Shown here: positions 7,293 to 18,293 of the stretch, in pieces
Layout: each line of letters begins with the position of its first letter
Position numbering within the stretch: position 1 is the first letter of the stretch
NCBI GenBank assembly: GCA_965242525.1
Contig: OZ251459.1
Span: 992,001-1,056,000 of the forward strand
Origin: an uncultured Candidatus Binatia bacterium
Lineage (GTDB): Bacteria > Desulfobacterota > Binatia > UBA9968 > JAJDTQ01
Direction of reading: 5' to 3'
DNA: 64,000 nt
The notes under the pieces: model-generated
Told to the model about the DNA's origin: nothing
Database searches by the model: none
Seen by the model: the letters and a program-made list of their open reading frames with translations, nothing else
Position numbers and translations under genes: made by a program

Positions 7293-7401
7293 GGAAACTC
7301 TGAACGATTACCCCGTTCGTCCCGAACGTAGCGAAGCGAAGTCGAAGGACGCGCTTTCCCACAGGGAGAGGGGGTTCAAACCGGAATTGTTCAGGGTTTC
7401 C
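7293..7401 (-). mobile_element. Repeat family A, complete MITE-like copy
   Basis: TIRs GGAAACTCTGAACGATT / AATTGTTCAGGGTTTCC around the core CCGTTCGTCCCGAACGTAGCGAAGCGAAGTCGAAGGAC. Confidence 0.8.
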
Positions 7402-7460
7402 TTTCTATTGTACCTGCCTACACCCGAAATTTCCACTTCAAGAATTGTCCAATGGCAAGT

Positions 7461-7709
7461 GGCGCTTCAGGAATTCGTGTGGGTTGCGACACTCCCTATC
7501 CCGTCATTCCCGCGAAAGCGGGAATCCAGACCTTGCGAGCAAACCCCATGGAGCCCTGTATGAGAGGTTTGTACAACGAGAGCGAGGAAAGTGGATGGAT
7601 TCCCGCTTTCGCGGGAATGACGGGGGTGGGCGTTTGCGGAGCAATGACGGCCTGACCTCTGTCCTTCCCCTTTCCCTCCTGCCTTTCCCACACGAATTCC
7701 TGAAGAGCC
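7461..7709. mobile_element. MITE-like element (family C) with 23-bp TIRs enclosing an inverted pair of dRS3-like palindromes
   Basis: GGCGCTTCAGGAATTCGTGTGGG ... CCCACACGAATTCCTGAAGAGCC (22/23 match). Internal GTCATTCCCGCGAAAGCGGGAATCC at ~7503 and its reverse complement at ~7597. Confidence 0.75.
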
Positions 7710-7863
7710 TGGTAAGTGAGCATGGAGGGGAGGGAAGAATCCAACGGTAAGCGAGCACGAGCAGGCCCGGGATGGCGCAGACTGGGGGAATGGGACGGCG
7801 CCGAGATGAGGAAGGCTGAACGGAGCCGGCTCCCCCTCGGGAAGGCGCTCCTTCTGTCGGGTC

Positions 7864-7921
7864 ATTTCTCCTTCTGAAAAGGAGAAATTTCTGCTATATT
7901 CTCCTTCTCGCAAGGAGAATA
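7864..7921. promoter_or_regulatory. Tandem palindromes TTCTCCTT-N5-AAGGAGAA (putative operator pair)
   Basis: Copies at 7864-7888 and 7897-7921, 33 bp apart. The second overlaps the AAGGAG RBS of the next gene. Confidence 0.6.
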
Positions 7922-15185: not shown

Positions 15186-16100
<915 letters not shown>

Positions 16101-16138: not shown

Positions 16139-17254
16139 TCAGACTCCGGCGCCGCCCGGGGCCCGTTCCAGCCGGTACGGCAGTACGGACATGCCGGCAT
16201 ACGCCTTGGCCGCGGTTCGAGCGCCCCGTTGGACCACCACCTTGAAGTAGCTGATGCCCTGGCGGACCACGTAGATCGCTCCTTCTCCGAGCAGCCGTTC
16301 GACGCCCGGCCAGCGCCGCAGCCCGTCGGCTTTCCCGGGAACGCACCAGCCCTGCTCCGTGACCCGGTCTATGAAGGGGTTCCACCCCATGGGGTCGGCG
16401 TCGAACCATCTCACGGGGCGGTACAGCTCCAGGCCGAGCCGCGGCCCGATCCCCTGCGCGGTGACTTCCAGGCCGACGGCGACGTAGGCGGTCAGGTCCT
16501 CCATGGCGGAGAGCACGGCCGCCGCCGCGTCCGTCGACCCGGGCCACTCCAAGCGTTCCAGCAGGGGGGGGACTTCCTCCTGCGCGGCGCCCCAGACGAG
16601 GATGCGGAACGCCTTGGGGGAGCGCCCCGGGAGGGCTCCCGCCTGGAACACGAAAGCCCTTTCCGGCAGGGCCGCGACGATGCGGTCCACCGTTGGCAGC
16701 ATCTCCCGGTGGCCGCTCCAGCCTGCGGTCAGGGCCAGCGCCTCGAGCAGGGCGGCAGGGTCCCGATGCTCGGTAAAGCCCTCCCGGGACCCGGGGGCGG
16801 AGGCCCGGGGCGGGAAGAAGATGCCCGGGGGCGGCGCCGGCCGGTGCGGCGCGAGCCCCGCCAAGTCGTACTCCAGCATCATCGCGCGCACTCCTCGGGC
16901 CAGGTACGAGTCCGTATCCGCGGCCTGTTGCTCGAGTCCGGCCGCGAGAGCGGCCGCCGGCGACCCGGGTTCGGCGCGCTTTCCCTCGCTGACGTAGTGC
17001 CGCGCCAAGTCCGATCCCGGTACCGCCATCACCACGAGGTCGGCGTCCGCGCTCGGCTCCGCGAGATGGAACTCGAAGCCGAAGTGGGTGTCGGCAACGG
17101 AACGGGGCAGCGGCTCCGCCCCCCGCATGACTCGCTCCCAGCCCCCGGCGTCGAGCAGCGCGGGCGGAAAAAGGGAACGGCATCCCCGGAGGACCGTGGC
17201 AAAGGAGCCGCGCGCGGCTCCTGCCGATGGGTCGTCTCCCGTGCCCACTTCCAT
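16139..17254 (-). CDS. Putative RiPP maturase, ABBA/DMATS-type prenyltransferase-like (371 aa)
   Basis: Directly downstream of the NHLP precursor. Soluble alternating alpha/beta pattern with motifs FGFEFHL, MLEYD, GRSPKAFRI, GPRLGLELY, SYFKVV and AKAY. The fold assignment is by pattern recognition only. Confidence 0.55.
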   Translation of the reverse strand: MEVGTGDDPSAGAARGSFATVLRGCRSLFPPALLDAGGWERVMRGAEPLPRSVADTHFGFEFHLAEPSADADLVVMAVPGSDLARHYVSEGKRAEPGSPAAALAAGLEQQAADTDSYLARGVRAMMLEYDLAGLAPHRPAPPPGIFFPPRASAPGSREGFTEHRDPAALLEALALTAGWSGHREMLPTVDRIVAALPERAFVFQAGALPGRSPKAFRILVWGAAQEEVPPLLERLEWPGSTDAAAAVLSAMEDLTAYVAVGLEVTAQGIGPRLGLELYRPVRWFDADPMGWNPFIDRVTEQGWCVPGKADGLRRWPGVERLLGEGAIYVVRQGISYFKVVVQRGARTAAKAYAGMSVLPYRLERAPGGAGV

Positions 17255-17270
17255 GCCTCGCGCCCCGACC

Positions 17271-17302
17271 GGCGGTCTTGCCGCAGGACGGCAGACCCTG
17301 CC
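17271..17302 (-). other. Stem-loop between the precursor and maturase genes
   Basis: GGCGGTCTTGCCG-CAGGA-CGGCAGACCCTGCC (+ strand). Confidence 0.5.
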
Positions 17303-17318
17303 CCGCGTCAGCGGAACC

Positions 17319-17594
17319 CTACCGCCACCCCACCTCGCCCCAATCGATGCCTCCGGCCACATGCACCAGGTCGGCTTCCCCGAGATTGGCGGAGGGCGGA
17401 AGGACCAGGTGGCTGGTGTCCGCGGTTTCCTCGTGGACCTCGATGTTGAACCCGGAGGGCACGGTCACGCCGGTTTCCGCCTTGATCGCGGCCTTGGGGT
17501 CCGCCATCAATTGGCTGCGGAACTCGCTGTCCACGGTCGACTTTTCGATCAGGTGCTCGCGCAGCTCACTGATGGTCATCGTTTTCTCGTCCAT
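17319..17594 (-). CDS. NHLP (nitrile hydratase-like leader) RiPP precursor, proteusin type; predicted core IDWGEVGWR
   Basis: LIEKSTVDSEFRSQLMADPKAAI...P...IEVHEET...HLVLPP and double-glycine cleavage motif LGEADLVHVAGG; AAGGAG RBS. Confidence 0.92.
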   Translation of the reverse strand: MDEKTMTISELREHLIEKSTVDSEFRSQLMADPKAAIKAETGVTVPSGFNIEVHEETADTSHLVLPPSANLGEADLVHVAGGIDWGEVGWR

Positions 17595-17680
17595 GTCCCT
17601 CTCCTTCGGCAGCCTGCACGCGGCCGCGCAAGCGAAATTCGGACGCGCTGCGCTTCGGGTGCGCAGCACGCCGTTCATGG

Positions 17681-17709
17681 AGAGTACGATACGGCCGACC
17701 CGATGTCAA
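17681..17709 (-). promoter_or_regulatory. Sigma70-type promoter of the NHLP precursor
   Basis: Minus strand TTGACA-N17-TACTCT. Confidence 0.65.
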
Positions 17710-17795: not shown

Positions 17796-17824
17796 TTGAC
17801 ACCGGTGGTGGGCAAATCAATAAT
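17796..17824 (+). promoter_or_regulatory. Sigma70-type promoter of the DUF1844-degP operon
   Basis: TTGACA-N17-AATAAT. Confidence 0.55.
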
Positions 17825-17852: not shown

Positions 17853-18293
17853 ATGGCGGAGGAAACAGACACGCAGAAGGGGTTCAAGGTCCACGACAAA
17901 CGCCGGTTCACCGACGAAGGCGAGGCCCGGGAGCAGCAGCCCGCGGGGGAGCCGGCCCCCTCGGAAGAGCAGCAGCCCGCGGAGCCCGGCGCGGAGACGC
18001 GCGCCGTTCCCGTCGGCGATCCCGGGGACCGCCGGGACGAGCTGCCGTCCATCGACTTCTCCACGTTCATCATCAGCTTGAGCACCCAGGCCCTCATGCA
18101 CCTGGGGGAGATGAACGACCCGGTCACGGGCAAGGTGGAGAAGGACGTGGCGGTGGCCAAGCAGACCATCGACATCATCGGCATGTTGAGCGAGAAGAGC
18201 AGGGGCAACCTGGACGAGGCCGAGGAACAGCTCGTGAAGGAAGTGCTGTACAACCTCAGGATGAGGTACGTGGAGGCCGTTCGCACCCCATGA
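17853..18293 (+). CDS. DUF1844 domain protein
   Basis: GFKVHDKRRF, IDFSTFIISL, ALMHLG, AKQTIDII.ML.EK..GNL and LRMRYV. Confidence 0.88.
   Translation: MAEETDTQKGFKVHDKRRFTDEGEAREQQPAGEPAPSEEQQPAEPGAETRAVPVGDPGDRRDELPSIDFSTFIISLSTQALMHLGEMNDPVTGKVEKDVAVAKQTIDIIGMLSEKSRGNLDEAEEQLVKEVLYNLRMRYVEAVRTP

What the first reader, a model, noticed from the sequence alone, without database searches (positions are those of the whole stretch)
16139..17709. Minimal two-gene proteusin (NHLP) RiPP locus with a di-tryptophan core and one unannotated maturase
Seen: a 91-aa precursor with a clear nitrile hydratase-like leader and double-glycine site (LVHVAGG), giving a 9-residue core IDWGEVGWR. It has its own TTGACA-N17-TACTCT promoter and strong RBS, then a stem-loop, then one 371-aa ORF; the pair sits between housekeeping genes cysK and DUF1844. 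Established: NHLP leaders define proteusins, normally matured by radical SAM, YcaO, LanM, halogenase or methyltransferase enzymes and exported via C39-peptidase ABC transporters. None of these is here, and the core has no Cys/Ser/Thr, which excludes azole and lanthionine chemistry. Inference: the neighbouring enzyme modifies Trp (prenylation is the leading guess) to give a short lipidated or signalling peptide, with protease and exporter supplied in trans.
Basis: partly seen in the sequence, partly recalled or inferred. Interest (0 to 1): 0.92.

Follow-up and report, generated by a model that had tools for sequence, protein, structure and literature searches.

The report
Tryptophan-peptide precursor with orphan prenyltransferase-fold enzyme
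A small secreted-peptide gene sits next to an unnamed enzyme whose predicted shape is that of a lipid-attaching (prenyl) transferase, and the pair probably makes a short lipid-tagged tryptophan peptide, a kind of product known from a few recent studies.

Summary
A 91-aa NHLP-leader precursor (core IDWGEVGWR after VAGG) lies 64 nt upstream of a 371-aa ORF with no Pfam or NCBIfam match, between cysK and a DUF1844 gene. The claimed promoter is weak (-10 matches 3 of 6) and the stem-loop is no better than shuffled sequence.

- All 45 related loci fetched carry NHLP precursors, and 101 of 108 unique cores contain Trp.
- Enzyme clades track core motifs.
- A distant member is fused to a terpene-cyclase-like domain.
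- A class II terpene-cyclase-fold gene sits beside the paralogous locus in this genome.

That second locus, about 612 kb away, holds the genome's only C39-peptidase NHLP exporter, so cleavage and export in trans are plausible.

Closest known systems are PalQ/PalX, MppC and NctPC. I rate it a new variant of a known kind. The scan had already reached the same reading for the paralogous locus (e1-781917/8/9). The prenyl donor, the modified Trp, transcription and the peptide's role remain untested.

The parts
17319..17594 (-). Precursor gene, 91 aa. NHLP leader (residues 1-82, ending VAGG) plus the 9-residue core IDWGEVGWR; the stop codon is included.
   Evidence: Translation. TIGR03793 scores 66.8 bits against a cut-off of 50.9. 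Orthologous precursors have the same or near-same core in L015, L016 and L031.
17601..17606 (-). Shine-Dalgarno sequence AAGGAG, 6 nt upstream of the precursor ATG.
   Evidence: Read directly from the sequence.
17681..17709 (-). Candidate promoter TTGACA-N17-TACTCT. The -35 is perfect; the -10 matches 3 of 6.
   Evidence: Read. It falls below the threshold of the consensus scan, which reported nothing on this strand. Function is not shown.
17255..17318 (-). 64-nt spacer between precursor and enzyme. It holds a GC-rich hairpin and no T-run.
   Evidence: Fold z-score is 0.76 against shuffles, which is not significant. No terminator-like site was called in the spacer.
16139..17254 (-). 371-aa enzyme with an ABBA (alpha-beta-beta-alpha barrel) prenyltransferase fold. 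It is the predicted leader-guided peptide Trp prenyltransferase.

Best explanation
This is a two-gene RiPP cassette. The 91-aa precursor carries a structured NHLP leader and a 9-residue core with two conserved tryptophans.

The 371-aa protein belongs to a large, unnamed sequence family with the ABBA prenyltransferase barrel, most like DMATS-type indole prenyltransferases. It probably docks on the leader and transfers an isoprenoid from a prenyl diphosphate onto the indole of a core Trp. Chain length is unknown, and the target could be W3, W8 or both.

The leader is then cut after Gly-Gly and the peptide exported by the genome's only C39-peptidase ABC exporter (TIGR03796, with TIGR03797 and a HlyD-type partner). 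That exporter is encoded about 612 kb away, beside a paralogous enzyme, four more precursors, a JmjC oxygenase and a class II terpene-cyclase-fold protein.

Shown here: the genes, the leader family, the fold, the linkage, the core composition and the trans machinery. Inferred: prenyl transfer, the Trp site, leader dependence, co-transcription and any biological role (signal or antimicrobial).
For: (1) Leader. TIGR03793 is above its cut-off.

(3) Conserved residues. Polar residues conserved over 76 sequences at 25-86% identity include E61, D72, K338 and Y352 (invariant) and E128, Y129, D130, R211, R217, E276, K308 and K350 (>=90%). By the DSSP strand ranges, all but R211 and K308 lie on or next to predicted barrel strands, often in an i/i+2 pattern. 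Most are kept in a 26%-identical relative.

(4) Linkage. 45 of 45 related loci hold at least one NHLP ORF within +-8 kb. In 41 of 45 one lies within 1 kb, and in 29 of 45 within 300 nt upstream on the same strand.

(5) Substrate signature. 101 of 108 unique cores contain Trp. Trp makes up 8.9% of core residues against 0.09% of leader residues, and 41 cores end in W. All 29 precursors next to an enzyme copy that I aligned share one Trp column.

(6) Co-variation. On a quick ML tree, enzyme clades match core motif classes. The window's clade (SH-aLRT 100) carries x-[D/S]-W-x-x-V-G-W(-R) cores.

(7) Cassette behaviour. The three orthologous loci (L015, L016, L031) share only precursor plus enzyme with the window; their flanks differ.

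(8) Isoprenoid context. A 1022-aa relative, P0306, has this domain at about residues 345-684 and a C-terminal part resembling squalene-hopene-cyclase-type domains. A 358-aa protein beside the paralogous locus folds as a class II terpene cyclase (drimenol synthase E 3e-11; MstE E 5e-9). It has homologues in 11 of 45 loci.

(9) Trans machinery. TIGR03796 scores 894.7 (cut-off 853.3) and TIGR03797 scores 748.2 (cut-off 709.4). There is one C39 domain in the whole genome.

(10) Predicted enzyme-precursor complex. Weak support only: ipSAE 0.53 against 0.01 for the best of 3 controls, partner pLDDT >=77, runs agreeing in >=59% of contacts. At scores of 0.60 or under, only 7 of 80 solved complexes and both mismatches that passed reached the mark.
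Against: There is no sequence-level match to any prenyltransferase family, so the assignment rests on a predicted fold plus context.

I could not inspect model coordinates. Whether the conserved residues line the barrel and form a diphosphate site is therefore unverified.

TM-scores to solved prenyltransferases are moderate (0.43-0.55).

The window's own clade has no cyclase, JmjC or exporter nearby, so evidence from the larger clusters transfers only by homology. The paralogue is 39% identical.

Seven of 108 cores lack Trp (they carry Tyr), and one clade has a Cys right after the Trp, so the acceptor need not be Trp everywhere.

No RNA data were found. The promoter and stem-loop are unconvincing, and cysK follows after 38 nt, so the transcription unit is unknown.

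The tree is the quick search only; the careful search did not finish.
Confidence: 0.72

Rival explanations
1. The barrel protein is a prenyltransferase, but the acceptor in this core is not Trp. Candidates are the C-terminal Arg guanidine, an Asp or Glu carboxylate, or the new N-terminus after cleavage.
For: Three of the four cores next to the enzyme in this clade end in Arg (window, L015, L031; L016 ends at W), and L030 and L021 hold a further such core each. Cores are rich in Asp (11%), and Trp is often flanked by Asp. [quoted passage not shown]
Against: Trp is the only residue shared by the cores next to the enzyme across clades: 29 of 29 aligned precursors and 101 of 108 unique cores. L016's core lacks the Arg. 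The best structural matches are indole prenyltransferases.
Confidence: 0.1
2. The protein has the prenyltransferase fold but does not transfer prenyl groups. It could be an inactive relative used as a leader-binding chaperone, scaffold or immunity protein, or a barrel enzyme with other chemistry on Trp such as cyclisation.
For: No sequence family membership. A shared fold does not show function (note). From memory, not from any call: inactive ABBA proteins exist in RiPP pathways, for example PatF of the patellamide pathway.
Against: Many charged and aromatic residues on the barrel strands are invariant or nearly so across 76 diverse members, as expected for an active site. The family is linked to terpene-cyclase-fold proteins by fusion and by neighbourhood. 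In two-gene cassettes it is the only candidate maturase.
Confidence: 0.1
3. The two genes are not a functional pair here. The precursor would be matured by the machinery of the second locus, and the 371-aa gene would belong to a cysK operon or act on another substrate.
For: cysK starts 38 nt after the ORF's stop on the same strand. No significant promoter or terminator features define the unit. No RNA holder was listed.
Against: Precursor plus enzyme recur together in L015, L016 and L031 with unrelated flanks and no cysK. In 29 of 45 loci a precursor lies within 300 nt upstream on the same strand. Enzyme clades co-vary with the adjacent core motif.
Confidence: 0.05

Closest known systems
PalQ/PalX of Paenibacillus alvei (PMC10853753; I read the outline and part 1 of 2 of the Results and Discussion)
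   Same: Both have an NHLP-type precursor with a short Trp-containing core in a very small locus. In PalX a Trp is prenylated, the NHLP domain enhances the reaction, and the donors tested were C5-C15.
   Different: PalQ is an all-alpha, trans-isoprenyl-diphosphate-synthase-like enzyme. It needs a terminal Trp and sits beside a histidine kinase. The enzyme here is an ABBA barrel, its core ends in Arg, and no kinase is adjacent.
MppC, lanthipeptide prenyltransferase of Moorena producens (PMC12715784; I read parts 1-2 of the text, and the supplements are closed)
   Same: MppC is a soluble alpha-beta-beta-alpha prenyltransferase that needs the long structured (Nif11-like) leader and geranylates one specific Trp (indole C5).
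   Different: MppC acts on a LanM-cyclised core with a Nif11 leader. Here the leader is NHLP, the core has no Cys, Ser or Thr, and no LanM is nearby. I could not test sequence relatedness, because no tool gave me the MppC sequence.
NctPC (and ChrPC) prenyltransferase-cyclase fusions (Hubrich et al., Chem 2024). The paper is not held in the library. I know it only through the review PMC13290415, sections 2.3-2.4, and from memory of its abstract.
   Same: [quoted passage not shown] It puts an isoprenoid (C20) on a RiPP Trp, and a class II cyclase domain then acts on it. From memory, the substrate is a cyanobacterial proteusin.
   Different: The enzyme here stands alone at 371 aa, and the cyclase-fold gene is separate and about 612 kb away. 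Only one distant fused relative turned up (P0306). Homology to NctPC is untested.
Cyanobactin F-family prenyltransferases (PagF, KgpF, LimF and others; PMC13290415 section 2.3)
   Same: They share the ABBA barrel and act on peptide acceptors, including Trp.
   Different: They are leader-independent and act on processed, mostly macrocyclic cores. Here the enzyme is always paired with leader-bearing precursors. The best structural matches are DMATS-type and Orf2-type small-molecule enzymes, and no cyanobactin enzyme appears among the 50 entries listed (absence from a list does not exclude a relationship).
srp sponge proteusins (SrpE, SrpC, SrpI; PMC10858898 passages; bioRxiv 10.1101/2023.06.09.544420 passages)
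   Same: They are NHLP precursors with a C-terminal Trp that is modified in a leader-dependent way, and they are spread across phyla of sponge symbionts. Near-identical copies of the window's locus occur in runs labelled sponge metagenome.
   Different: The srp cores are LCCCW, processed by a YcaO enzyme and a flavin brominase. None of these is present here.

Membership tests
NHLP-leader RiPP precursors (TIGR03793; 'proteusin'-type leader) | Leader matches the NHLP leader model above its curated cut-off | tested here: met
   66.8 bits against a cut-off of 50.9, covering residues 9-82.
NHLP-leader RiPP precursors (TIGR03793; 'proteusin'-type leader) | Gly-Gly type cleavage site followed by a short core | tested here: met
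   The sequence reads ...VAGG followed by a 9-residue core. The Gly column is >=90% conserved in 29 precursors.
NHLP-leader RiPP precursors (TIGR03793; 'proteusin'-type leader) | Dedicated NHLP export system (TIGR03794/03796/03797) with a C39 peptidase | tested here: met
   Not in the locus. It is present once in the genome, at C1:1613464-1619631. TIGR03796 scores 894.7 (cut-off 853.3) and TIGR03797 scores 748.2 (cut-off 709.4). The HlyD partner scores 86 bits, below its cut-off of 156. There is a single C39 domain in the genome.
ABBA aromatic prenyltransferase superfamily | Barrel of five alpha-alpha-beta-beta repeats | tested here: met
ABBA aromatic prenyltransferase superfamily | Sequence membership in PF11991 (Trp_DMAT) or PF11468 (PTase_Orf2) | tested here: not met
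   No hit at E<=1 for the protein or for any of 76 family members. A profile search of PDB sequences found no prenyltransferase.
ABBA aromatic prenyltransferase superfamily | Basic and Tyr residues in the barrel lumen that bind the diphosphate, plus an acidic residue near the acceptor | tested here: inconclusive
   R211, R217, K308, K338, K350, Y129, Y352, E61, D72, E128, D130 and E276 are conserved. By the strand ranges, all but R211 and K308 lie on or next to predicted strands. I could not map them in 3D or align them residue by residue to solved enzymes.
ABBA aromatic prenyltransferase superfamily | Prenyl transfer activity | not testable with these tools
   This needs an assay with DMAPP, GPP, FPP or GGPP.
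Trans-IDS-like peptide Trp prenyltransferases (ComQ, PalQ) | All-alpha isoprenoid-synthase fold with Asp-rich motifs | tested here: not met
   The model is an alpha/beta barrel, and no isoprenoid-synthase family hit was found.
Lanthipeptide prenyltransferases (MppC type) | Acts on a LanM-cyclised core, with Cys plus Ser/Thr in the core and LanM in the cluster | tested here: not met
   The core has no Cys, Ser or Thr. The immediate neighbours are cysK and DUF1844. Neighbour clustering over 47 loci, with Pfam annotation of 9 representatives of recurrent clusters and 10 flanking ORFs of L015, L016 and L031, showed no lanthionine synthetase. The whole genome was not searched for LanM.
Prenyltransferase-cyclase RiPP maturases (NctPC type) | Prenyltransferase fused to, or paired with, a class II terpene cyclase | tested here: not met
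   This enzyme stands alone, and no cyclase lies within +-8 kb. The genome's one cyclase-fold gene is at C1:1611890-1612987, beside the paralogue. One distant fused relative, P0306, exists. Sequence homology to NctPC is not testable here.

The most novel reading that the evidence does not exclude
The 371-aa protein would be the founding, uncharacterised member of a very large family of DMATS-like, leader-guided peptide prenyltransferases (at least 1453 clusters at 50% identity). This family would define its own RiPP class, 'prenyl-Trp NHLP peptides'. Its minimal form would be a horizontally mobile two-gene cassette exchanged among phylogenetically distant sponge symbionts. The cassette would make ComX-like lipidated Trp peptides that serve as community signals rather than antibiotics.
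Probability: 0.3. Interest if true: 0.75.

Novelty: new variant of a known kind. Interest (0 to 1): 0.6.

Why it matters
If the assignment holds, one short gene pair gives a genetically encoded route to a lipidated 9-residue peptide.

It would also name a large protein family that no database currently describes. The family is common in sponge-associated metagenome genomes, where NHLP peptides are reported to be among the most highly transcribed biosynthetic genes (bioRxiv 10.1101/2023.06.09.544420, passages).

A stand-alone, leader-guided, DMATS-like peptide prenyltransferase with a minimal linear substrate would be a convenient biocatalyst for site-selective Trp lipidation.

The many clade-specific core motifs offer a natural map of enzyme-substrate specificity. 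One of them is a C-terminal W-C-x-P-[V/I] motif that resembles a CaaX box.

The idea itself, Trp prenylation of long-leader RiPPs, is already established, so this extends a known theme and does not open a new one.

Tried and rejected
Sequence-level annotation of the enzyme
- Pfam and NCBIfam on the protein, and Pfam on all 76 aligned relatives, found nothing meaningful.
- A profile search of PDB sequences returned only chance-level hits.
- Cluster look-up gave no name other than 'hypothetical protein'.

Fetching related loci
I repeated it with the closer alignment A2.

Distribution in the own phylum
- Only 2 of 401 sampled genomes have a homologue at E<=1e-10, one of them this genome. Relatives had to be sought elsewhere.

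Promoter and terminator
- No promoter was called on the minus strand. The spacer hairpin is not significant. A terminator-like hairpin at 17187-17173 (-) lies inside conserved coding sequence, and 3 sites were found against 1.1 expected from shuffles.

Expression
- No RNA holder was listed, so co-transcription could not be tested.
- Read laying used contigs only. They show presence and arrangement, not transcripts.

Fused forms
- A single-sequence search for longer proteins found none. The profile search found one, P0306. Both searches are weak evidence for rarity.

Predicted complex
- Weak support only; no interface was given.

Literature
- Searches found no paper in the held library describing this stand-alone family.
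- Hubrich et al. 2024 (PMC11484575) and Hubrich 2026 (10.1039/d5np00075k) are not held.
- Supplements are closed. Figures S67-S71 of PMC12715784, which list MppC-like clusters, may bear on novelty.

Rejected idea
- That this is an srp-type cluster: there is no LCCCW core, YcaO enzyme or halogenase.

Other
- The search of earlier findings by sequence returned nothing.
- The careful tree search did not finish; the quick tree was used.
Full report
**1. What is in the sequence**

On the minus strand, window 17319-17594 encodes a 91-aa peptide that ends ...LVHVAGG followed by IDWGEVGWR. It matches the NHLP leader model TIGR03793 at 66.8 bits, above the curated cut-off of 50.9. It gives weaker matches to nitrile hydratase alpha and to other NHLP-clan models. 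A good Shine-Dalgarno sequence (AAGGAG) sits 6 nt before the ATG.

Sixty-four nucleotides downstream, window 16139-17254 encodes a 371-aa protein. Orthologues align from its first residues, so this start is preferred over the 407-aa alternative that would overlap the precursor.

The pair is flanked by cysK (15186-16100, minus strand; TIGR01139, 438 bits) and a DUF1844 gene (17853-18293, plus strand).

- The TTGACA-N17-TACTCT motif is present (17709-17681), but its -10 matches the consensus in 3 of 6 positions. The scan called nothing on that strand.
- The spacer hairpin is no more stable than shuffled sequence (z = 0.76) and has no T-run.

cysK begins only 38 nt after the enzyme's stop on the same strand, so the limits of the transcription unit are open.

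**2. The enzyme**

The 371-aa protein has no Pfam or NCBIfam match, and neither do any of 76 aligned relatives. A profile search of PDB sequences also found nothing relevant.

It is nonetheless a member of a large family.
- 182 clusters at 90% identity scored E<=1e-3 in the word-indexed search.
- 1453 representatives at 50% identity scored E<=1e-3 in the exhaustive search, 501 of them at E<=1e-10.
- The only source name found was 'hypothetical protein'.

AlphaFold2, run with a 76-sequence alignment, gives a confident model (pLDDT 93, pTM 0.91). Its elements run helix-helix-strand-strand five times, which is the ABBA prenyltransferase barrel.

Structural comparisons agree.
- Foldseek returns 91 PDB hits at E<=1e-3, headed by PriB, EpzP, IptA, DMATS1 and AmbP3, with TM-scores of 0.43-0.55.
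- Independently, ESM Atlas features place it nearest, among named clusters, to Trp_DMAT (0.90), DUF5838 (0.89) and PTase_Orf2 (0.89).

Across the 76 sequences, E61, D72, K338 and Y352 are invariant. E128, Y129, D130, R211, R217, E276, K308 and K350 are conserved at >=90%. By the strand ranges, all but R211 and K308 lie on or next to predicted barrel strands, often two apart, as expected for residues facing one side of a strand. From memory, this mix of Lys, Arg and Tyr plus acidic residues is the kind that binds the diphosphate and the acceptor in DMATS-type and Orf2-type enzymes. I could not inspect coordinates, so this remains an inference.

**3. Linkage to NHLP precursors**

In the window's genome the enzyme has one paralogue (39% identity) at C1:1620841-1621962. 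The genome has eight NHLP precursor genes above the model's cut-off. Five of them lie next to one of the two enzyme copies.

In public genomes, a pattern scan with a 30-sequence alignment fetched 45 loci. They come from metagenome-assembled genomes labelled Vicinamibacterales, Spirochaetia, Gamma- and Alphaproteobacteria, Binatia and Chloroflexota. I built a leader HMM from the eight own-genome leaders and scanned these loci.
- 45 of 45 loci carry at least one NHLP ORF within +-8 kb.
- In 41 of 45 the nearest lies within 1 kb.
- In 29 of 45 it lies within 300 nt upstream on the same strand.
- Many loci hold two to five enzyme paralogues and up to 18 precursors.

Of 108 unique cores, 101 contain Trp. 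Trp makes up 8.9% of core residues but 0.09% of leader residues, and 41 cores end in Trp. The seven Trp-less cores carry Tyr. An alignment of 29 precursors adjacent to an enzyme copy has one invariant Trp column.

On a quick maximum-likelihood tree, enzyme clades match core classes. (SH-aLRT support only; the careful search did not finish.)
- The window's clade (support 100) contains L015 with the identical core, plus L016 and L031 with x-S-W-D-x-V-G-W(-R).
- A nine-member Vicinamibacterales/Acidobacteria clade has (x)W-C-x-P-[V/I].
- Four Dehalococcoidia/Chloroflexota loci share one 11-residue core (identical in 3, one substitution in L051).
- Three Chloroflexota loci have a 5-residue core ending in W.

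The four loci of the window's clade share nothing but precursor and enzyme. The pair therefore behaves as a cassette. The family is rare in the window's own phylum: 2 of 401 sampled genomes, including this one.

**4. Isoprenoid context**

I tested this.

The 358-aa protein at C1:1611890-1612987 is single-copy in the genome and has homologues in 11 of 45 loci. Pfam gives only sub-threshold squalene-hopene-cyclase hits, in 2 of 3 homologues tested. Its AF2 model (pLDDT 84) matches class II terpene cyclases: drimenol synthase at E 3e-11, TM 0.69-0.72, and the monodomain cyclase MstE at E 5e-9.

A profile search for longer relatives of the enzyme found one 1022-aa protein, P0306. It carries the barrel domain at about residues 345-684 (26% identity, E 2e-53). 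Its C-terminal third resembles squalene-hopene-cyclase-type clusters (Atlas 0.91; Pfam E 0.005, below threshold).

Fusion and neighbourhood with terpene cyclases argue that the family handles prenyl groups. The window's own clade has no cyclase nearby.

Other recurrent neighbours are:
- NHLP/ABC exporters, in 28 of the 47 loci clustered (the 45 plus the two own loci);
- a JmjC protein, in 18 of 45 loci;
- an FAD oxidase with a cytokinin-dehydrogenase-like domain, in 10 loci;
- a family III CoA-transferase, in 9 loci.

**5. Cleavage and export**

The paralogous locus encodes a HlyD-type protein, a peptidase-C39 ABC exporter (TIGR03796: 894.7 bits, cut-off 853.3) and its partner (TIGR03797: 748.2 bits, cut-off 709.4). 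A whole-genome search finds exactly one C39 domain and one TIGR03796 match above cut-off. All eight Gly-Gly precursors, including the window's, therefore probably use this one system.

**6. Binding**

A controlled complex prediction of enzyme plus precursor gave weak support. The score was 0.53 in each of three runs (0.52-0.54), against 0.01 for the best of three controls. Partner pLDDT was >=77 and runs agreed in >=59% of contacts. By the tool's own calibration, a pass at or below 0.60 is more often wrong than right unless the guess was likely beforehand. I treat it as compatible with leader docking and no more.

**7. Occurrence**

Twelve public runs from six studies hold part of the stretch. 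Several are labelled sponge metagenome. None is on record as RNA.

Contigs in three of four runs laid bridge cysK to the enzyme, and the enzyme through the precursor to DUF1844. They differ from the window by about 2%. The same arrangement therefore exists in close relatives.

**8. Mechanism proposed**

1. The leader docks on the barrel enzyme.
2. A core Trp (W3, W8 or both; both are conserved in the clade) attacks the allylic cation formed from a prenyl diphosphate.
3. The C39 exporter cuts after Gly-Gly and secretes a lipidated nonapeptide.

Donor length, regiochemistry, possible action of the distant cyclase or JmjC protein, and the peptide's role are unknown.

**9. Comparison with what is known**

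- PalQ prenylates a terminal Trp of an NHLP precursor but has an all-alpha fold (PMC10853753).
- MppC is an ABBA enzyme that needs a Nif11-like leader and geranylates Trp C5, but it acts on a lanthionine-cyclised core (PMC12715784).
- NctPC is an ABBA-like prenyltransferase fused to a cyclase that geranylgeranylates a RiPP Trp (PMC13290415, section 2.3). The primary paper is not held, and I recall only its abstract.
- Cyanobactin prenyltransferases are leader-independent.
- srp proteusins use a YcaO enzyme and a brominase on LCCCW cores (PMC10858898).

The present system combines an NHLP leader, a linear Cys-free core and a stand-alone DMATS-like barrel from a sequence family with no database entry. 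My seven literature searches found no description of it. Unheld papers and closed supplements may contain one.

**10. Verdict**

It is a new variant of a known kind. Interest is 0.6, and confidence in the mechanism is 0.72.

The scan had already reached the same reading on the paralogous locus of this genome (e1-781917, e1-781918, e1-781919).

Noticed in passing
L041, L045-L050, L052, L058 (precursor just upstream of the enzyme at about 7300-7920): Nine Vicinamibacterales/Acidobacteria loci have very short cores ending (x)W-C-[S/C/T]-P-[V/I]. A Cys sits four residues from the C-terminus, as in a eukaryotic CaaX box, and directly follows the conserved Trp. These loci also carry an FAD oxidase with a cytokinin-dehydrogenase-like domain and a family III CoA-transferase.
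   Followed up: partly
own genome C1:1611890-1612987 (-) = L060:394-1467: A 358-aa protein with no Pfam family folds as a class II terpene cyclase (drimenol synthase and MstE matches). It lies beside the paralogous NHLP locus, is single-copy in the genome, and has homologues in 11 of 45 related loci.
   Followed up: yes
P0306 (1022 aa, metagenome protein): The only long relative found. It has the prenyltransferase-fold domain in the middle (about residues 345-684), with flanking regions that carry Gly-Gly-Trp-type repeats. Its C-terminal third resembles squalene-hopene-cyclase domains.
   Followed up: partly
own genome C1:1623207-1624985 (-) = L011:11208-12986: A JmjC-domain protein (PF08007) lies next to the precursor array of the paralogous locus. 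Homologues at 62-82% identity occur in 18 of 45 related loci but in none of the window's clade.
   Followed up: partly
own genome C1:1559515-1559832 (+), 2928341-2928640 (-), 721419-721745 (-): Three further NHLP precursors lie far from either enzyme copy. Their cores are Trp-containing and 14-23 residues long. They may be substrates in trans.
   Followed up: no
L033:8839-9840 and L036:8866-9975 (+): An NHLP leader appears to be fused to a long (about 250-aa) C-terminal region instead of a short core, directly downstream of the enzyme.
   Followed up: no
L015, L016, L031 compared with the window: The window's enzyme is 78-85% identical to copies in genomes labelled Acidobacteriota and Spirochaetota. 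L015's core is identical to the window's. This suggests horizontal transfer of the cassette, or mislabelled bins.
   Followed up: partly
window 17796-17824 (+): A strong sigma-70-like site (TTGACA-17-AATAAT, 11 of 12) faces the DUF1844 gene, divergent from the precursor.
   Followed up: no
window 17173-17187 (-): A terminator-like hairpin plus T-run lies inside the enzyme's conserved N-terminal coding region. It is probably a by-product of the coding sequence.
   Followed up: no
own genome C1:789490-790506 (+): The open frame here gives two sub-threshold matches to the NHLP leader model (42.3 and 33.1 bits). It looks like a genuine nitrile hydratase alpha subunit, not a precursor.
   Followed up: no
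L011:13087-13845 (-), and L021, L024, L039: ISL3-family transposase genes lie beside several of the clusters, including the paralogous locus in the own genome.
   Followed up: no
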